A stretch of 6,223 bases of DNA from a virus (Duplodnaviria > Heunggongvirae > Uroviricota > Caudoviricetes), in the IMG/VR virus record IMGVR_UViG_2529292908_000013, positions 1 to 6,223 of that record; one strand, 5' to 3'. The notes beneath the pieces are model-generated. The model was given only the letters and a program-made list of their open reading frames with translations. It was not told the DNA's origin and did not search any database. This document shows positions 1-6,223 of this stretch, one piece after another; position 1 is the first letter of the stretch; each line of letters begins with the position of its first letter. The translations under genes and the position numbers were made by a program.

Positions 1-1101
1 TCAGGCTATATTTCTTGTTATGTTATGCAGCTCAGCTGTAAAAATCAGCTCTCCCTTAGCGAAGGGAGTGCTCCCTCCTGGTTGAGTCATAAAACTTTGT
101 GAGACAGTCGTCCAGCTGTTTGTGTCGCTTTGTACGCCATTCTCTGTAATCGTTGCGCCTTCATGGCTGCCATTTTTCACTTTCCAGGCCAGGCGGTTAT
201 TGGGGGCATCAGCACCGCGGTAAGTGACCGAGGCCATAACGGCCACAACATCACTGTTGCTGTTATCCACCGCACCAAACGTGGCCTGTGCTGCATTCAG
301 GGACGGCGAGAGCATCAGATATCCGGCCTCGCTGTCAGAGGTGTTCAGCCCCGTGACAATATCTTTATTCAGTGAGTTTTTGGCGCTTCCACCGGTAAAT
401 GCCGTTACCGGGCTGTATCTGACCTCAATGCTTCCGAGCAGGGCGGGTTCTGCACTATTATTTCTACCGTATGTCACTGTTCCACAGTACATATCACCCA
501 GCATTAACGTACCGGATGCACCCGATGAAAAAATATTGTCACCACTACCAATACTCACCTGAATTTTGTCAGTCCGGTCATCTGGTACATAAAACGATGT
601 ATTTCCAACTAATGAGCGGTTGCAGTACAGACTGGCTGAGACATAGCCGTTTTCGTTTCGCGTTGCGAAAATTTCATAGTAATAACTGGCTGCTTCATCA
701 GGATACGGGGTTGTAAATGAATAGCCATTAATCCTGATGTGGGATGGCGAAGATGAATATTTCTTTCCCGCACTTAATGTCAGACGAAATCCCAGCTGTA
801 CAGCTGAGGCTTTTAAGTCCGGAAGTGTGCTGTACAGTGTGACATATGAGGATGTCGTGAAAATCAGCCCCGTTCTTTCTACAGTATTTACGGCCTGAGT
901 GCCACGACAGACGGATGTTACAGAACCGGACATATCATTGATAAGCGTGACACCGTTTTCGTTCAGTGCTGAAATAATATTTGTTGAATAATAGTTCTCG
1001 CACAATCCCTCATTCGCCGGAATTTGTCGAAAACTTTCGAGTTTTATAATATTCAAGGTCTGCTTTCCTTTTGTGTCGGTTAATATATTTCTGAATACCA
1101 C
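1..1101 (-). CDS. Hypothetical protein (366 aa by the ORF track), function unknown; candidate accessory (moron) gene or second receptor-binding protein downstream of the tail-fibre assembly gene
   Basis: Uninterrupted 1101-nt ORF, co-directional with the tail operon, with TGA stop at 3..1. The start is uncertain: the ORF opens with GTG at 1101..1099, 11 nt after the tfa stop, with no obvious Shine-Dalgarno. An in-frame TTG at 1056..1054 is preceded by AAGGAAAG and is an alternative start; the first in-frame ATG is codon 57. The protein is Ser/Thr/Gly/Asn/Tyr-rich, with no N-terminal hydrophobic signal, no transmembrane-like stretch, no Walker A motif and 4 Cys. I do not recognise it as any named family. 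G+C hand-counted at 37-45% in three 120-nt samples, versus about 59-62% in the baseplate genes. Confidence 0.65.
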   Translation of the reverse strand: MVFRNILTDTKGKQTLNIIKLESFRQIPANEGLCENYYSTNIISALNENGVTLINDMSGSVTSVCRGTQAVNTVERTGLIFTTSSYVTLYSTLPDLKASAVQLGFRLTLSAGKKYSSSPSHIRINGYSFTTPYPDEAASYYYEIFATRNENGYVSASLYCNRSLVGNTSFYVPDDRTDKIQVSIGSGDNIFSSGASGTLMLGDMYCGTVTYGRNNSAEPALLGSIEVRYSPVTAFTGGSAKNSLNKDIVTGLNTSDSEAGYLMLSPSLNAAQATFGAVDNSNSDVVAVMASVTYRGADAPNNRLAWKVKNGSHEGATITENGVQSDTNSWTTVSQSFMTQPGGSTPFAKGELIFTAELHNITRNIA

Positions 1102-1112
1102 AAAAAGTTAGC

Positions 1113-1631
1113 TCATGGTTTTTGTGGCCATTGAATAAAATCAAAAGACTCCTTATCACTCACATGACTTAAATTCAGAGCCTTCACCTCTTTGATATAC
1201 GCCATCCACTGCATCAGGTGGGCCTTGTCGTCATCACTGATGGTGCCCAGCTCCAGCTCGGTTTTCCAGTCAGATGTGATGTCCTTTGCTTCAGTCAGCA
1301 GATGCTGGCGTTGTTTTTCTGCCAGTTGCGAATAATCAACAGGAACCGGCAGCACTTCGCCGTCTTTGTAATACCAACTGGCTTCAATGCCAAAACCTTC
1401 CGGCAGTTCATCAACTTCCACAATGGTGAAACCTGTCGGATAAAGACGGGACACGTCTTCCGCCATTGAATAAATCACGCCACTTTCAGGGTGAATGCAC
1501 AATTTGTATCTCTTCGTGAATTTGTCCATGGATTCATAAAAATCCTGTCCGTCTTCACTGCGGAAATACTGAATGCCTTCACCATAAGGCATCTCTTTCG
1601 GGTAATAACGCGTGACGTTTCTGAGTTCCAT
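1113..1631 (-). CDS. Phage tail fibre assembly protein (Tfa / Mu U / P2 G-like chaperone), about 172 aa
   Basis: ORF-track ORF 1113..1667; I place the start at ATG 1631..1629 (MELRNVTRYYPKE...) because a canonical AAGGAG (revcomp of 1638..1643) lies 6 nt upstream. The upstream ATG at 1667 would overlap the fibre gene by 22 nt and has no RBS. The C-terminus (...DDDKAHLMQWMAYIKEVKALNLSHVSDKESFDFIQWPQKP) has the acidic/Trp-Pro pattern I recall from lambda Tfa-type chaperones. Position immediately 3' of the fibre gene fits. Confidence 0.8.
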   Translation of the reverse strand: MELRNVTRYYPKEMPYGEGIQYFRSEDGQDFYESMDKFTKRYKLCIHPESGVIYSMAEDVSRLYPTGFTIVEVDELPEGFGIEASWYYKDGEVLPVPVDYSQLAEKQRQHLLTEAKDITSDWKTELELGTISDDDKAHLMQWMAYIKEVKALNLSHVSDKESFDFIQWPQKP

Positions 1632-1645
1632 TATTTTCTCCTTAA

Positions 1646-2449
1646 TTAGCCGGATACCGTGCGCCATCCGCCATTGATATAAATCTGAGTTTGTTTGTAA
1701 TACACGCCGCCGATGTTATCCGCAGAGCTCTTGCCAGTTTCCTGAACGTTAATACCTGACAAAATACAACCTGAAGGCGCGCGAAATACCCAGGAAATTT
1801 CGTTACCACCGGGATTGTGAAACACTTCGCTGGTATACCTGAAATCACGTACTGCACCAGAATCGGTGCTGCTGATAGTGATATCGCTACTGCCATCAAA
1901 CAGCACATTGTTAATCCTGCGGGCCGTCTGAAGCCGGGTTGCCGTTCCGGCGTTGCCGCTGATGTTGTTGATGGTGATATCCGAAGTCAGGGGCATGTTG
2001 TTGACCTTACGCGCTTTTGGCACACCGCTGATGTTATCCAGAAACAATTGTTTATTCGGGATGTCTGCGCCGTTACGGTCTTTTGCCAGTCTGGCGTTTG
2101 CGTTATCCATCGCAATCCTGACCGCTTTTGGTGTAGCCGCTTCTGTTTCTGATTCACTGTTAACAGCACTGTTAAGCCGCACTACGCCTTTTTGCGTCAG
2201 CGATGCATCCGGGACTTTCTGGCCAATAAACGAGGTCAGCGCCTCAACCAGCTGGTTTTGTTTTTCCGGGTCAGGGGTGACGCCAGCCTCTTTAAGGACG
2301 TTAATCACCTCCTGCTGCAAATCACGCGTTGCTGCCTGATGATTATTCATAAATTCAGCAGTAACGATGGTTCCCTCAATTCCCTGAGTCGGGTCACCAT
2401 CATGAAATAACTTATCCGGCGTATTCACCGGGGGCATTAAACTCTGCAT
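1646..2449 (-). CDS. Phage tail fibre protein (267 aa) with a P2 gpH-like conserved collar motif and C-terminus
   Basis: ATG at 2449..2447 preceded by AGGAG (revcomp of 2455..2459) with a 5-nt spacer; TAA stop at 1648..1646. Contains ...DASLTQKGVVRLNSAVNSESETEAATPKAVRIAMDNANARL..., matching the widespread tail-fibre motif I recall from P2 gpH (..SETLAATPKAV..). The C-terminus ...IYINGGWRTVSG resembles the P2 gpH end (..KYINGTWYNVAQV). The 3' half is lower in G+C (about 44% at 1681-1800). Confidence 0.85.
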   Translation of the reverse strand: MQSLMPPVNTPDKLFHDGDPTQGIEGTIVTAEFMNNHQAATRDLQQEVINVLKEAGVTPDPEKQNQLVEALTSFIGQKVPDASLTQKGVVRLNSAVNSESETEAATPKAVRIAMDNANARLAKDRNGADIPNKQLFLDNISGVPKARKVNNMPLTSDITINNISGNAGTATRLQTARRINNVLFDGSSDITISSTDSGAVRDFRYTSEVFHNPGGNEISWVFRAPSGCILSGINVQETGKSSADNIGGVYYKQTQIYINGGWRTVSG

Positions 2450-2495
2450 TATTTCTCCTGTAGTTATTACAAATAAACAACATCAGACCTTTTGT

Positions 2496-3452
2496 TTAAG
2501 GCTCTGTGATAACGGCAAAGTGCAGCCCATTATGGTTAACTACTAATGGGGTACTGCTGTTATTTGCTGTTTGTAAATGTATTTTGTTAATTGTCATCGG
2601 CTCCGTGGTCTGCCTTCCCGACTGCCACTGAACGGTATTAACTGTCAGTGGTTCAATAGTTCGCCGCTCCGACAATAGTTGCATTCTGTTAATCAGCAAT
2701 GGTTCCTGACTCAGGTTTCCCGCCTGAAGCTGCGTATTGTTGATTGTGAGCGGTTTACCTTTCAGTACAGGAATAACTGCAAAATGCATTCCGGCATTAT
2801 TTATCAGCAGAGGCGCATCAGCATGACATACTGACTGAAACTGAATTCTGTTAATTGTCAGTGGTGATACTGGCTCTGGCTGAGATGTGATTTCATAAGT
2901 GAAATAACAGTCTGTAAAAGCTGGTTTAAGGTCTTTAAACGTGTTTTCTAAAATGGATTCACCAAAGGCCGTCAGCGGTTCGCCGGTTGCCGATGCGCCC
3001 GTTCTGAACCGGTAGACAGGTGTTTTTGTCCCGATAACATTGACCTGCCACGCCCAGCGGATTTCTGGTATCAGCAGGCGGTCGCCGCAGCGGTTTATCC
3101 CCACCCGGAATGGTCGCGGCTCCGTAATGGTGATGGTGTAGCCCAGACTGGCGGCAAGGCTTTTGAAGTAAGGGATTGACAGCCCCCCCGTGGCAGCCAT
3201 TTTTACCAGAATGTTCTGACGCCGCTCCTGTTGTGTTGCCCCTTCACGAGGAATAACACCGTACACGCGCTCCCAGTCGGACAGCGTCATCGATGCCTGC
3301 AACGGGGTGATTTGTGTCAGAACGCGCGCCGCTGACGCCTTCACGACTTCCATGACGTCAGCCTCGGCTGTCAGTTCTGCGGAAATATATTTCCCGTTCA
3401 GGTCATAACTGACAGGTGGCAGCATGGCGCGAAATAAATCGACCATATTCAT
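2496..3452 (-). CDS. Baseplate/tail protein of the Mu gp48 / DUF2313 (YmfQ-like) type with an atypical C-terminal extension of seven tandem 17-aa repeats; about 318 aa
   Basis: ORF-track ORF 2496..3488. I place the start at ATG 3452..3450 (MNMVDLFRAMLPP...), 4 nt after the J-like gene's TGA and preceded by GAGGGG; the upstream part of the ORF lies inside the preceding gene. The N-terminal roughly 190 aa resemble gp48/YmfQ-type proteins as I recall them, and the position between the J-like gene and the fibre gene matches Mu/SfV/e14 order. The C-terminal roughly 125 aa are repeats of the form PL(T/L)INxxQ... (see repeat feature). Confidence 0.75.
   Translation of the reverse strand: MNMVDLFRAMLPPVSYDLNGKYISAELTAEADVMEVVKASAARVLTQITPLQASMTLSDWERVYGVIPREGATQQERRQNILVKMAATGGLSIPYFKSLAASLGYTITITEPRPFRVGINRCGDRLLIPEIRWAWQVNVIGTKTPVYRFRTGASATGEPLTAFGESILENTFKDLKPAFTDCYFTYEITSQPEPVSPLTINRIQFQSVCHADAPLLINNAGMHFAVIPVLKGKPLTINNTQLQAGNLSQEPLLINRMQLLSERRTIEPLTVNTVQWQSGRQTTEPMTINKIHLQTANNSSTPLVVNHNGLHFAVITEP
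2499..2879 (-). repeat. In-frame degenerate tandem coding repeats (7 units, 51-nt period, one 60-nt unit) at the 3' end of the gp48-like gene
   Basis: Protein-level repeats start at ORF residues 209, 226, 246, 263, 280, 297 and 314: PLTINRIQFQS.., PLLINNAGMHFAVIPV.., PLTINNTQLQAG.., PLLINRMQLLSE.., PLTVNTVQWQSG.., PMTINKIHLQTA.., PLVVNHNGLHFAVITEP. The corresponding plus-strand cores are a gTTaAttGtcAgtGG-like string recurring at roughly 51-nt spacing between about 2528 and 2850. Confidence 0.75.
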
Positions 3453-3456
3453 AAAA

Positions 3457-4536
3457 TCACCCCTCGCGCGGAAAAGGCTGAATATCAATATTTCCCGGGC
3501 GCAACCATTCCCACGTTGACGCGTTAATAATGGCTTTTACGTTGTCCGCTGGCGTAATGATTCGCCGGTCACTGACACCGGAAATTAATGAAATCTGGGT
3601 TTCCAGTTGTGAAATTATTAATTCCTGCCCCGGCTCCAGCCGGTTCATAAAATCCGTGATAACGTCAGTTATTTGCGGTTTTATCTGCTCAACGGTCAGG
3701 CCGCTGGTTTTTACCCGGACAACGAAATCAACGGCTTTTTTCGTCGGGGCCAGTACCATCGTGTCCTTCGCTGTGACCGGGCGGACTTCCTCAATATGTG
3801 CCAGCACGGCATTAATCAGTTCCTGCGAGGGAAGGTCATTGGCTGACGTAATGGCCACATCAACCGTTCCCAGCCCACGACGCAATGACTCCACATATGC
3901 CGAGGTAACGCCATCCACTTCCAGCGCCCAGCGTTTGTAATCATATTTGTTACCGCCAGCGGGCGGCCTGCGCAGAATATCCAGATAACGCGCCAGCAGG
4001 TCGGCGTCACTTTCCCTGTCCGTTCCGCCGGTCAGGGATTTAATCGTCACCGTGCTGTTGATGCCTTCCGGCGGACTGACCAGCGTTGCCGTCTGCGTTG
4101 TGGATGCGTTCGTATGTGCGCCCGTGGTGGTGCTTTTTGCCGTCACCTCCGCGCTGCCTTCATCACCGATGGTGCAGTCTGCGGTGGTGGCCACGCTGAC
4201 ACCTTCACCACGAATTTCCGCACCGGCTGGCAGCATCTTACCGGGTGTACCGGTAATCACTGCCGGGCCGGATGAGGCCGTTGCTTTTTTACGAAAAACA
4301 TTGCGCGCGCGGCAGTGCAGCTCCAGATATTCAGGGTCTGCCGTGTCAGGAAACACCTGACGGAGTATCCACCCCTGATGCATATAAAGCCCGTCAGCCA
4401 CGCCAGATACGGCATTTGCACGAATGCGGTAATCGCTGTCAGCGCCGGTGTCGATGGTTTCTCCCGGCAGGGCGTTAGCGATATCACGTAGCTGGCGTTC
4501 TGTGTTTTCAGCAACGCCCGGAACTGGAAACGGCAT
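3457..4536 (-). CDS. Baseplate J-like protein (Mu gp47 / P2 gpJ family), 359 aa
   Basis: ATG at 4536..4534 overlaps the upstream gene's TAA by 1 nt (TAATG), with GAGGA about 9 nt upstream. Length and the C-terminal half (...YDYKRWALEVDGVTSAYVESLRRGLGTVDVAITSAN...) fit baseplate J-type wedge proteins as I recall them. Gene order fits. Confidence 0.85.
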   Translation of the reverse strand: MPFPVPGVAENTERQLRDIANALPGETIDTGADSDYRIRANAVSGVADGLYMHQGWILRQVFPDTADPEYLELHCRARNVFRKKATASSGPAVITGTPGKMLPAGAEIRGEGVSVATTADCTIGDEGSAEVTAKSTTTGAHTNASTTQTATLVSPPEGINSTVTIKSLTGGTDRESDADLLARYLDILRRPPAGGNKYDYKRWALEVDGVTSAYVESLRRGLGTVDVAITSANDLPSQELINAVLAHIEEVRPVTAKDTMVLAPTKKAVDFVVRVKTSGLTVEQIKPQITDVITDFMNRLEPGQELIISQLETQISLISGVSDRRIITPADNVKAIINASTWEWLRPGNIDIQPFPREG

Positions 4537-4886
4537 TACATAATCCTCACAGGGTGTTCAAACGTCTGCGGTGTGCCCGCGTTATCCGTGACGGTGATTA
4601 ACAGCAACAACCAGCCGCGCTGGCCCGCTTTCGTGTCAACGGTAATGGATTTTGCCCGCCCGTCATCAAGCAGGGGCTGAAGCGCCTGACTGGCATACTG
4701 CGCCGCCAGCCTGTGAACACGGGAAACGTCTTTTTCCCGCTTCAGTTCGTGCAGGCGTGACCCCAGCGACGCATCCGCCCAGTAACTGCCAAGCGGCGTC
4801 GCCAGTCGCAGATAAACCGCGTTATGAAGTGTATAAATCCGGCGGCGTTCGTAGTCGCCGGTTGCAGGTGAAATCGTCTGGTCCAT
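4536..4886 (-). CDS. Small baseplate protein, Mu gp46-like (P2 gpW / T4 gp25-type position), 116 aa
   Basis: ATG at 4886..4884 and TAA at 4538..4536, translationally coupled to the J-like gene. Size and position between the spike (V-like) and J-like genes are as in Mu-type baseplate modules. The sequence identification itself is weak; the call rests mainly on synteny. Confidence 0.7.
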   Translation of the reverse strand: MDQTISPATGDYERRRIYTLHNAVYLRLATPLGSYWADASLGSRLHELKREKDVSRVHRLAAQYASQALQPLLDDGRAKSITVDTKAGQRGWLLLLITVTDNAGTPQTFEHPVRIM

Positions 4887-4939
4887 GCCGCCAGTCTGGC
4901 AGCATGGACAGGTCAGAATCAGGTGAGGGTGTTCAGCAC

Positions 4940-5593
4940 TTAATTAACCGGCGTGTCAGACATGCCGTGTGGGGTCGGGTGTTTGTGCGTTCCGATTTTA
5001 ATGCCATTAATGGTGACGTCAACGGAGGTAATCACACCACCCACATGGTTGATGTTGCCTTCAAAGGTGGCGGCATATTTCTTGCCCCCACTGATGGCCA
5101 TGCCACCACTGCCGGTGATTTTACCTTCCACTGTCAGCTTATCGCTGGCCGTCAGTAACGGTGTCGTGAATGCGGCGTTCTCCTCTGCCTCAACCTCATA
5201 GCGTTTGCATTTCACCCGGTAAACGTCACATTCGGTTTCAACAATCCGCCCGCGCTTCAGTACGATTTTCGCGCCTTCATCGGTATACAGGGCCACCTCG
5301 CCGGGTTTCAGTTCCGTCAGGCGATATGCGCCGTGCTCTGTGGCCACGATGACGGTATGGGAGGTATTACCGTTCAGCGGAACGGCAATACCCATAGAGC
5401 CGGGCGGCGGGGATGTGGTGAGGCCGTAATGCTGAAAATACTCCGCACCGTCCAGCTGCTCGCCTGCCAGCCCGTTCAGCTGGAGAAGCTGTACTTTGGT
5501 CGAACTGTCCACCGTACCGGTCACCACCCTGAATGCCTGGCGAACGGTGGCCAGTGCCTGCTGTATGCGCTGATTAACCTTGTCCCACATCAT
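4940..5593 (-). CDS. Baseplate spike / assembly protein V-like (Mu gp45 / P2 gpV family), 216-217 aa
   Basis: Tandem ATG ATG at 5593..5588; GGGAGAA lies 2 nt before the first ATG and 5 nt before the second, so 5590 may be the true start. TAA stop at 4942..4940. N-terminal OB-like region followed by a Gly-rich C-terminus ending ...INGIKIGTHKHPTPHGMSDTPVN, which resembles the P2 gpV C-terminal apex (..HTHKHPGDSGGTTG..) as I recall it. Confidence 0.85.
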   Translation of the reverse strand: MMWDKVNQRIQQALATVRQAFRVVTGTVDSSTKVQLLQLNGLAGEQLDGAEYFQHYGLTTSPPPGSMGIAVPLNGNTSHTVIVATEHGAYRLTELKPGEVALYTDEGAKIVLKRGRIVETECDVYRVKCKRYEVEAEENAAFTTPLLTASDKLTVEGKITGSGGMAISGGKKYAATFEGNINHVGGVITSVDVTINGIKIGTHKHPTPHGMSDTPVN

Positions 5594-5991
5594 TTCTCCC
5601 AGACCTTAACAATGGCGACCTCTTTTTCTTTTTGCCCCTGCGGTGATGGCGTTTCTTCTCACGCGGGAAGGCGTCAGGTATCCACACGCCGTCCTCCTTA
5701 AAGCGAAGCCGGGTTGTCTGCCCGTTCCGGCCTCCGCTGAACTCACGCCCCATCAGGAAAAAGATGGCATCAATGCCGTGGAGTTCGCTGACAATCCGCA
5801 CACGCTGGCCGGGCTGCCACAGGACACCGTCCGCCGTGCGATGGCCTGCAACCAGTGCAACGATATCCAGCCCCGACAGACGGGCATCACTCATCATTTT
5901 TTTTGCGCGCCAGTTCACCTGCTCCATGTTACTGGTGTCGCCCTGGGTGATTATCTGCGGGCGGTAATAATCCACGGTGGGGTCGGTGGCC
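5574..5991 (-). pseudogene. 3' fragment of a baseplate hub gene (Mu gp44/P, P2 gpD-like 'late control D' family), interrupted at its 5' side by IS186
   Basis: The reading frame is open from the IS186 junction (5991) to a stop at 5576..5574 and overlaps the V-like gene start by 20 nt. The ORF track begins it at GTG 5975, but the frame stays open upstream into the IS inverted repeat until a TAG at 6002..6000. This is about 138 codons where hub proteins of this family are about 380 aa as I recall. The gene immediately upstream of the spike gene in Mu-type modules is the hub. Confidence 0.6.
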
Positions 5992-6014
5992 CATAAGCGC
6001 TAACTTAAGGGTTG
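5992..6014 (+). repeat. IS186 terminal inverted repeat (IRL), 23 bp
   Basis: CATAAGCGCTAACTTAAGGGTTG lies directly at the point where the phage hub-gene frame is broken. The exact outermost base (5991 versus 5992) cannot be fixed without the other end of the element. Confidence 0.8.
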
Positions 6015-6046
6015 TGGTATTACGCCTGATATGATTTAACGTGCCG

Positions 6047-6223
6047 ATGAATTACTCTCACGATAACTGGTCAGCAATTCTGGCCCATATTGGTAAGCCC
6101 GAAGAACTGGATACTTCGGCACGTAATGCCGGGGCTCTAACCCGCCGCCGCGAAATTCGTGATGCTGCAACTCTGCTACGTCTGGGGCTGGCTTACGGCC
6201 CCGGGGGGATTGTCATTACGTGA
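6047..6223 (+). CDS. insL: IS186 transposase InsL, N-terminal portion; reading frame terminates at 6221..6223, apparently through a +1 frameshift
   Basis: ATG at 6047 (the ORF track starts at an upstream in-frame GTG at 6041). The translation matches the InsL N-terminus through ...LAYGPGG, then reads IVIT-stop. The canonical protein as I recall it continues MSLREVTAW..., which is what GTCATTACGTGA would encode in the -1 frame. This implies one extra T at about 6210/6211. Confidence 0.8.
   Translation: MNYSHDNWSAILAHIGKPEELDTSARNAGALTRRREIRDAATLLRLGLAYGPGGIVIT

What the first reader, a model, noticed from the sequence alone, without database searches (positions are those of the whole stretch)
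5574..6014. IS186 insertion truncates the baseplate hub gene, so the tail module is probably inactivated
The hub-like reading frame runs without a stop straight into the IS186 terminal repeat at 5992 and only about 138 C-terminal codons remain on this side. The hub is essential for baseplate assembly in contractile-tail phages, so this prophage is most likely cryptic or tail-defective unless the element lies elsewhere in complementing form. That matters for interpreting the downstream cargo: a gene retained in a decaying prophage is more likely to be under host-level selection. The flank GTGGGGTCGGTGGCC fits the GC-rich target preference of IS186.
Basis: partly seen in the sequence, partly recalled or inferred. 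Interest (0 to 1): 0.5.

Follow-up and report, generated by a model that had tools for sequence, protein, structure and literature searches.

The report
IS186 splits a prophage baseplate gene
A common E. coli jumping gene (IS186) has landed inside the baseplate hub gene of a Mu-like prophage in strain DEC6C. This is an ordinary, recent event in a prophage that a separate 11-kb deletion had already disabled or has since disabled.

Summary
Window 5992-6014 is the 23-bp left terminal repeat of IS186. It abuts the last third (residues 271-403) of a 403-aa Mu gp44/GpP-type baseplate hub gene on the minus strand.

The window is E. coli DEC6C draft contig AIFX01000052.1. The missing 5' part of the hub gene (codons 1-270) is on contig AIFX01000054.1, next to the opposite IS186 end. 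An 11-bp target duplication, GGTCGGTGGCC (window 5981-5991), flanks the element. The target, GGGG-N7-CCAC, is one base off the published IS186 motif GGGG(N6/N7)CCCC. Seven complete E. coli genomes carry the same prophage at 99.6% identity or more, with an uninterrupted hub gene.

The inference that the prophage is defective is right, but the IS is not the only lesion. DEC6C also has an 11.4-kb deletion fusing terL to the tape-measure gene, which removes all head, sheath and tube genes.

Both lesions were seen only in this lineage, and what remains is about 99.7-99.9% identical to intact prophages. Retention of the downstream cargo gene therefore says nothing about selection.

The window's 138-codon ORF is slightly wrong. 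A 1-nt T-run indel, probably a 454 sequencing error, replaces the native last 10 residues. Ordinary; low interest.

The parts
5590..5991 (-). 3' remnant (2 nt of codon 270, codons 271-403 and the native stop at 5590-5592) of a Mu gp44/GpP-type baseplate hub gene. As written in the window, the ORF runs to a false stop at 5574-5576 because of the T5 indel.
   Evidence: Pfam NMB1110-like_C and NMB1110_3rd. PHROG 177 baseplate hub. Identical apart from one indel to the 3' third of the 403-aa gene in L001. Breakpoint after nt 809 of 1212.
5981..5991 (.). 11-bp target-site duplication GGTCGGTGGCC. The second copy lies beyond the other IS186 end on DEC6C contig AIFX01000054.1.
   Evidence: Junctions read in L010, L005 and L006. 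The predicted 274-aa N-fragment for an 11-bp duplication exists exactly in the protein collection. Predictions for 9, 10 and 12 bp do not.
5979..5991 (.). Window-side part of the IS186 target GGGG-TCGGTGG-CC(AC). This is the N7 class of the GGGG(N6/N7)CCCC motif, with one deviation in the 3' flank.
   Evidence: Empty-site sequence GGGGTCGGTGGCCACGG in L001. Motif from PMC5009759. The K-12 IS186A flanks show the same 2+N+2 duplication geometry.
5992..6014 (+). IS186 left terminal inverted repeat (23 bp).
   Evidence: Exact match to both ends of K-12 IS186A.
5992..6223 (+). Left 232 nt of IS186, including the start of the transposase gene insL (from 6041/6047). The window and the contig break off inside the repeat.
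   Evidence: Alignment to NC_000913.3 IS186A shows 0 mismatches and 1 inserted T. The contig continues 36 nt further into IS186.
6210..6211 (+). Extra T (TT instead of T) that would frameshift insL and create the stop at 6221-6223. Probably a draft-assembly error.
   Evidence: No exact (130/130) match among the 8,504 IS186 matches in complete E. coli genomes; the listed best hits are 99.2% identical, spanning 129 nt against the 130-nt query, which fits the single inserted base. The DEC6C draft differs from a sister assembly only by indels.
5623..5627 (-). T5 run (T6 in all relatives) that frameshifts the last 10 codons of the hub remnant. Probably a 454 homopolymer error.
   Evidence: It is the only difference between window 1-6018 and Logan contig SRR9913975_147. 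T6 in L001.
4940..5592 (-). gp45-type spike/baseplate assembly protein V, immediately downstream of the hub. It overlaps the native hub stop.
   Evidence: Pfam Phage_Mu_Gp45 E 2e-23. Annotated in relatives.

Best explanation
A copy of IS186 (IS4 family, DDE transposase) transposed into the baseplate hub gene of a Mu-like transposable prophage in E. coli DEC6C. The gene is a homologue of Mu gp44/GpP. The prophage lies next to yeaW in this strain.

**Shown**
- The element made an 11-bp staggered cut at GGGG-TCGGTGG-CCAC and duplicated GGTCGGTGGCC.
- It split the 403-codon gene inside codon 270, in the middle of the third of its four domains.
- The upstream piece now ends ...KAVATDP followed by a TAA supplied by the IS terminus.
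- The downstream piece (residues 271-403, window 5590-5991) follows the IS186 left end.
- The same prophage also carries an 11.4-kb terL-to-tape-measure deletion, so it has no head, sheath or tube genes.

**Inferred**
- The downstream piece has no native start codon or ribosome-binding site, and no intact hub can be made.
- Transcription of the downstream genes (gp45, gp46, gp47, gp48, fiber, chaperone, cargo) from upstream phage late promoters would be interrupted.
- The prophage is a non-inducible remnant, and the IS insertion is one of two recent, lineage-private lesions.
- The two 1-nt indels in the window (5623-5627 and 6210-6211) are most likely errors of the 454-based draft.
For: **IS186 identity.** The left end, including the 23-bp IR, matches K-12 IS186A. 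The right end is 743 nt with 0 mismatches, on DEC6C contig AIFX01000054.1.

**Both junctions and the 11-bp duplication** were read in three assemblies: DEC6C NCBI (L003 and L010), Logan SRR9913975 (L005/L011 and L007), and SRR491164 (L006). An exact-sequence look-up confirmed the 11-bp prediction and rejected 9, 10 and 12 bp.

**Empty site.** An intact 403-aa gene is present in 7 complete genomes at 99.6% identity or more. The two intact proteins were seen on 128 and 115 contigs.

**Hub identity.**
- Four Pfam domains at residues 9-93, 95-176, 248-303 and 305-372.
- PDB matches 3D37 (E 3e-76), Mu gp44 1WRU/9KI1 (E 2e-19) and 3CDD.
- PHROG 177 baseplate hub.
- Synteny between the DNA-circularization gene and the gp45 gene.

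**Target motif** from PMC5009759.

**Deletion.**
- L005 matches L004 up to 41370 and again from 29993.
- The fusion consists of terL residues 1-202 joined to tape-measure residues 140-757.
- The 818-aa fusion protein is exactly EHV61426.1, ECDEC6C_2123, located on L010.

**Indels as errors.**
- The window versus SRR9913975 shows 0 mismatches and 1 gap in 6,018 nt.
- Contig 54 versus SRR9913975 shows 0 mismatches and 3 gaps in 14.6 kb.
- A 454 adaptor sits at the start of L006.
- No exact (130/130) match among the 8,504 IS186 matches in complete E. coli genomes; the listed best hits are 99.2% identical, spanning 129 nt against the 130-nt query, which fits the single inserted base.
Against: - No single contig spans the whole IS186. 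About 330 nt of its middle are not covered, so a rearranged or composite element between the two ends cannot be formally excluded.
- I could not test whether a second, intact hub gene (another Mu-like prophage) exists elsewhere in the DEC6C genome.
- Loss of function and polarity are inferred, not measured.
- The T5 and extra-T indels could be genuine private mutations rather than errors. SRR9913975 may be a sister isolate rather than DEC6C itself.
Confidence: 0.93

Rival explanations
1. The IS186 insertion is the primary, sufficient cause of the prophage being defective: an otherwise complete prophage made tail-less by loss of the hub.
For: The hub is split at codon 270. Relatives with an intact hub have complete Mu-like gene sets.
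Against: DEC6C and its sister assembly lack 11,376 bp covering most of terL, the portal, protease, major head, connector, sheath and tube genes, and the first 139 codons of the tape-measure gene. The prophage cannot make particles regardless of the IS. The order of the two events is unknown.
Confidence: 0.04
2. The junction is an assembly artefact: a chimeric contig end in a collapsed repeat. The hub gene would actually be intact in the strain.
For: The window ends inside a multicopy repeat of a 454-era draft. The draft contains indel errors.
Against: Both junctions recur in independent assemblies from different read sets (NCBI DEC6C, Logan SRR9913975, Logan SRR491164). They carry opposite IS186 ends and a perfect 11-bp duplication of the length and sequence context expected for IS186.
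Confidence: 0.01
3. 5574..5975 is a complete, independent small gene rather than a gene fragment.
For: A 133-aa ORF with a GTG start is called and deposited as EHV61921.1 'tail, 43 kDa domain protein'.
Against: Its DNA is identical, apart from one indel, to the 3' third of a 403-aa gene in intact prophages, and homology stops exactly at the IS terminus. It begins in the middle of Pfam domain NMB1110_3rd, at profile position 28 of 59. The matching N-terminal 270 codons lie across the IS.
Confidence: 0.01
4. The T5 frameshift (5623-5627) and the extra T in insL (6210-6211) are real secondary mutations, that is, signs of ongoing decay of both the hub remnant and this IS186 copy.
For: Both are present in the deposited contig. 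A disrupted gene is free to accumulate frameshifts.
Against: All differences between the DEC6C draft and the sister assembly over about 20 kb are indels, with no substitutions. The read set is 454. No exact (130/130) match among the 8,504 IS186 matches in complete E. coli genomes; the listed best hits are 99.2% identical, spanning 129 nt against the 130-nt query, which fits the single inserted base. The same T5 call appears in an unrelated, obviously error-ridden assembly (L009).
Confidence: 0.12

Closest known systems
IS186 (IS186A/B/C of E. coli K-12; IS4 family; also annotated as IS421)
   Same: 23-bp terminal inverted repeats. The left 232 nt and right 743 nt each show 0 mismatches to K-12 IS186A. 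The duplication geometry is 2+N+2 (11 bp here, 10 bp at IS186A). The target resembles GGGG(N6/N7)CCCC.
   Different: A new insertion site, in a prophage hub gene. The 3' flank of the target is CCAC rather than CCCC. The middle of the element is not assembled. One extra T in insL is probably an error.
IS186 insertion in the lon promoter of E. coli B (known hot spot; from my own knowledge of SaiSree et al. 2001, not read here)
   Same: Gene inactivation by IS186 at a G-run/C-run target.
   Different: This insertion is in a coding sequence of a prophage. There is no evidence of a hot spot: it was seen in only one lineage.
Bacteriophage Mu gp44 (gene P) baseplate hub, PDB 1WRU/9KI1. Also Neisseria NMB1110 (3D37) and MuSo2 43-kDa tail protein (3CDD).
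   Same: The intact relative has the same four-domain architecture and significant sequence similarity. It occupies the same gene position, between the gp43-like DNA-circularization gene and the gp45-like spike gene.
   Different: It is closer to NMB1110 (E 3e-76) than to Mu gp44 itself (E 2e-19). In the window only half of domain 3 plus domain 4 remain.
Cryptic or defective prophages of E. coli, inactivated by IS insertions and internal deletions
   Same: An IS insertion plus a microhomology-mediated internal deletion in an otherwise recognisable prophage.
   Different: The remnant is very young. The surviving genes are about 99.7-99.9% identical to those of complete prophages in other strains.

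Membership tests
IS186 insertion | 23-bp perfect terminal inverted repeat CATAAGCGCTAACTTAAGGGTTG at both ends | tested here: met
   Window 5992-6014. Inverted copy at L010 14610-14632, L005 and L006.
IS186 insertion | Internal sequence equals IS186 | tested here: met
   Left 232 nt and right 743 nt each show 0 mismatches and 1 indel versus K-12 IS186A. The central ~330 nt are not in any contig.
IS186 insertion | Direct target-site duplication of about 10-11 bp flanking the element | tested here: met
   GGTCGGTGGCC on both sides.
IS186 insertion | Target motif GGGG(N6/N7)CCCC | tested here: met
   The empty site is GGGG-TCGGTGG-CCAC, with one deviation. PMC5009759 reports that 7 of 59 sites deviate by 1-2 bases.
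IS186 insertion | Uninterrupted (empty) site in relatives | tested here: met
   Seven complete genomes at 99.6% identity or more with an intact gene. None of 5,426 genomes carries the junction.
IS186 insertion | Full-length element with an intact transposase | not testable with these tools
   The contigs break inside the repeat. The extra T at 6210-6211 would frameshift insL but is probably an error.
Mu gp44/GpP baseplate hub | Four-domain architecture (GpP-like_1st, Gp44-like_2nd, NMB1110_3rd, NMB1110-like_C/GpP_4th) | tested here: met
   The intact relative P0001 has all four above Pfam cut-offs. The window piece has the C-terminal domain plus half of the third.
Mu gp44/GpP baseplate hub | Sequence homology to structurally characterised hub proteins | tested here: met
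   3D37 E 3e-76, 1WRU/9KI1 E 1.9e-19, 3CDD E 9e-15.
Mu gp44/GpP baseplate hub | Gene position between the gp43-like gene and the gp45-like gene of a Mu-type tail module | tested here: met
Mu gp44/GpP baseplate hub | Required for baseplate and tail assembly | not testable with these tools
   Rests on established Mu genetics (my own knowledge).
Mu-like transposable prophage | MuA-type transposase, MuB-type ATPase, GemA, Mor, Mu-type head and tail genes, and different chromosomal sites in different strains | tested here: met
   Mu-transpos_C/HTH_Tnp_Mu_1, AAA, GemA and Mor in L010 and L011. A full gene set in L004. Neighbours are yeaW in DEC6C and dtpB in RIVM_C036569.

The most novel reading that the evidence does not exclude
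The surviving baseplate-fiber-cargo block downstream of the IS might be retained and expressed for the host's benefit. This would be a domesticated remnant driven by read-out from the IS186 left end or by an internal promoter, with the phrog_8291 cargo gene as the selected function. Alternatively, the GGGG-N7-CCAC site in this hub gene might be a recurrent IS186 hot spot that repeatedly disarms this prophage family.
Probability: 0.03. Interest if true: 0.4.

Novelty: already known. Interest (0 to 1): 0.1.

Why it matters
It matters mainly for annotation.
- EHV61921.1 ('tail, 43 kDa domain protein', 133 aa) is the 3' remnant of one IS186-split hub gene. The ORF on contig 54 ending ...KAVATDP (called at 272 aa in DEC6C, 274 aa in SRR9913975) is its 5' remnant.
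- ECDEC6C_2123 is a terL-tape-measure deletion fusion.
- The DEC6C Mu-like prophage should be treated as a dead remnant.

For anyone interpreting the neighbouring cargo gene, the prophage's decay is too recent to be used as evidence of selection. The case adds one more natural IS186 site that fits the GGGG(N7)CCCC rule. Nothing here challenges current knowledge.

Tried and rejected
1. An exact scan of genome contigs for the 40-nt junction found nothing. That collection holds one genome per species, so this was uninformative.
2. No complete E. coli genome covers 80% or more of window 5400-6223, so no closed genome carries this insertion.
3. Predicted N-fragments for 9-, 10- and 12-bp duplications are absent from the protein collection.
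4. The GTG-start, unshifted 128-aa C-fragment is absent. The gene caller used the ATG (112 aa) in the clean assembly.
5. P0018 (102 aa) looked like it might come from closed contigs spanning the IS. It turned out to be a different lesion in a related prophage: an A7/A8 frameshift.
6. P0032 (the frameshifted 107-aa version) came from an error-ridden assembly with an uninterrupted hub, not from this lineage.
7. The promoter/terminator scan of 5400-6223 found no sites. There is therefore no support for, or against, outward transcription from IS186.
It was obtained through the listing of cluster members instead.
9. TRF found no DNA tandem repeat under the repetitive C-terminus of the gp48-like ORF.

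Full report
**What is in the window.** All phage genes lie on the minus strand and form the distal part of a Mu-type tail module:

| Window coordinates | Gene | Evidence |
|---|---|---|
| 1-1101 (called 4-1005) | Protein of unknown function | phrog_8291, no Pfam |
| 1113-1667 | Tail-fiber assembly protein | Caudo_TAP |
| 1646-2449 | Tail fiber | Phage_fiber_2 |
| 2496-3488 | gp48-like wedge protein | Pfam, PHROG |
| 3457-4536 | gp47 / Baseplate_J | Pfam |
| 4536-4886 | GP46 | Pfam |
| 4940-5593 | gp45-like spike / V | Pfam |
| 5574-5991 | Reading frame of the finding | see below |

From 5992 to the end of the window the sequence is IS186.

**Checking the observation.** The 23-bp IS186 inverted repeat CATAAGCGCTAACTTAAGGGTTG occupies 5992-6014. 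Window 5992-6223 aligns to the left end of K-12 IS186A with no mismatch and one inserted T at 6210-6211. The minus-strand frame is open from the stop at 5574-5576 up to 5991 and three codons into the IS, giving 138 codons on the phage side.

The fragment hits Pfam NMB1110-like_C (E 9e-33), NMB1110_3rd and GpP_4th, and PHROG 177 'baseplate hub' (E 2e-46). The coordinates and description are therefore correct.

**Comparison with strains lacking the insertion.**
- No genome among 5,426 complete E. coli genomes carries the junction.
- Seven carry window 1-5991 at 99.6-99.8% identity.
- In all of these, homology continues past 5991 into an uninterrupted 1,212-nt gene. It is annotated 'phage baseplate assembly protein', 403 aa.
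- That protein has four Pfam domains: GpP-like_1st at 9-93, Gp44-like_2nd at 95-176, NMB1110_3rd at 248-303, and NMB1110-like_C at 305-372.
- It matches the solved hub proteins NMB1110 3D37 (E 3e-76), Mu gp44 1WRU/9KI1 (E 2e-19) and MuSo2 3CDD.
- The break is after nt 809, inside codon Val270, in the middle of domain 3.

In strain RIVM_C036569 the prophage is a complete Mu-like element carrying GemA, Mor, lysis genes, terL, portal, head, sheath, tube, tape measure, gp43-like, hub and the rest. In that strain it sits next to dtpB. The window's prophage sits next to yeaW-yeaV-dmlA-dmlR. Differing locations are expected of a transposable phage.

**Source of the window and the other IS end.**
- An exact look-up of the 133-aa ORF identified the source as E. 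coli DEC6C, draft contig AIFX01000052.1. The contig stops 268 nt into IS186.
- I simulated IS186 insertion into the intact gene with duplications of 8-13 bp.
- I then looked up the predicted N-terminal products for duplications of 9-12 bp by exact sequence.
- Only the 11-bp prediction (274 aa, ending ...KAVATDP and then a TAA formed by the IS terminus) exists in the collection.
- Its contigs read ...GCCGTGGCCACCGACC|CATAAGCGCTAACTTAAGGGTTGAACC, which is the right end of IS186.
- The same junction is present in DEC6C itself, on contig AIFX01000054.1. There it is followed by 743 nt of the IS186 right end with 0 mismatches.

The duplication is therefore GGTCGGTGGCC (window 5981-5991). The empty target reads GGGG-TCGGTGG-CCAC. 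That is the N7 class of the IS186 motif 5'-GGGG(N6/N7)CCCC-3' reported from 59 reconstructed insertions, with one deviation in the flanking palindrome (PMC5009759). K-12 IS186A shows the same geometry, with target GGGGATCACTCCCC and duplication GGATCACTCC. This is a textbook IS186 transposition event.

**A second, larger lesion.** The contig that carries the 5' half of the hub shows that the prophage is not otherwise intact. Relative to the complete prophage, 11,376 bp are missing (L004 29994-41369). The breakpoints share a GTTATCC microhomology. The deletion fuses terL residues 1-202 in frame to tape-measure residues 140-757.

The resulting 818-aa protein is exactly EHV61426.1, ECDEC6C_2123, located on contig 54. 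The following are gone: most of terL, the portal, minor head protein, protease, major head, connector proteins, sheath, tube and chaperones. The prophage could not make particles even with an intact hub.

**Age of the lesions and the cargo argument.** The IS junction products and the fusion protein occur only in DEC6C and two Logan read-set assemblies:
- SRR491164 has a 454 adaptor at its contig start.
- SRR9913975 is identical to DEC6C apart from indels.

The surviving DNA is 99.6-99.9% identical to complete prophages. The decay is therefore very recent. Retention of the downstream gene carries no information about host-level selection.

**Sequence quality.**
- The window differs from the SRR9913975 contig over 6,018 nt by a single gap, T5 versus T6 at 5623-5627.
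- Contig 54 differs from SRR9913975 over 14.6 kb by three gaps and no substitution.
- None of the 8,504 IS186 matches in complete genomes is an exact match to the stretch with the extra T at 6210-6211. The best hits listed are 99.2% identical and one base shorter.

Both indels are best read as 454 errors. The T5 error makes the window ORF end 15 frameshifted residues after GKKKK at 5574, instead of 10 native residues later at 5590-5592. The true remnant is residues 271-403, which is 133 codons.

**Mechanism and consequences.** Shown: insertion, duplication, split gene, deletion. Inferred from established Mu biology (my own knowledge): gp44 forms the trimeric central hub on which the baseplate assembles, so a protein lacking half of domain 3 and all of domain 4 is expected to be non-functional. 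The insertion should also be polar on the downstream baseplate, fiber and cargo genes if they depend on upstream late promoters. A simple consensus scan found no promoter-like or terminator-like site in 5400-6223, so expression of the downstream block remains open.

**Verdict.** This is an ordinary IS insertion in a young prophage remnant: already-known biology, of low interest, and useful mainly for correcting annotation.

Noticed in passing
Outside the window: L010 (DEC6C contig AIFX01000054.1) 10001-12457; equivalent to L004 29994-41369 deleted: An 11,376-bp deletion at a GTTATCC microhomology fuses terL(1-202) in frame to the tape-measure protein (140-757). The product is the 818-aa ORF ECDEC6C_2123. 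All head, sheath and tube genes are lost.
   Followed up: yes
window 5623-5627 and 6210-6211: Two 1-nt indels relative to every relative: T5 instead of T6, and TT instead of T inside IS186 insL. The DEC6C draft differs from a sister assembly only by indels, so these are probably 454 errors. They create a false hub C-terminus and a false insL stop at 6221-6223.
   Followed up: yes
L012, L014, L015, L016 around 5990-6004; equivalent to the window T8 run 5898-5905: In a related Mu-like prophage lineage (94% identical hub gene), the hub gene is split into 301 + 102 aa by A7 instead of A8. This is seen in at least four independent assemblies. It may be a real slippage-prone homopolymer inside the hub gene.
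   Followed up: partly
window 2496-3488 (-), especially about 2496-2870: The gp48-like wedge protein carries a ~125-aa C-terminal extension with 6-7 copies of a ~20-aa motif (EP-L-x-I-N-x-x-Q-x-Q). PGAP flags the gene as a partial YmfQ pseudogene in all intact relatives. No DNA tandem repeat was detected.
   Followed up: partly
window 4-1005 (-) (longest ORF 1-1101): The last gene before the prophage right end and yeaW encodes a 334-366-aa protein with no Pfam hit. It matches only phrog_8291 (unknown function) and is conserved in the intact relatives.
   Followed up: partly
L001 (NZ_AP041814.1) 1-2475 versus 9386-13008: In strain JNE21-009 the prophage right end abuts a second, oppositely oriented copy of the tape-measure and DNA-circularization genes. 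This suggests two adjacent or rearranged Mu-like prophages.
   Followed up: no
L006 1-20: The Logan contig from SRR491164 begins with a 454 Titanium adaptor sequence (CCTGTGTGCCTTGGCAGTCTCAG), so there is untrimmed adaptor in a public assembly.
   Followed up: no
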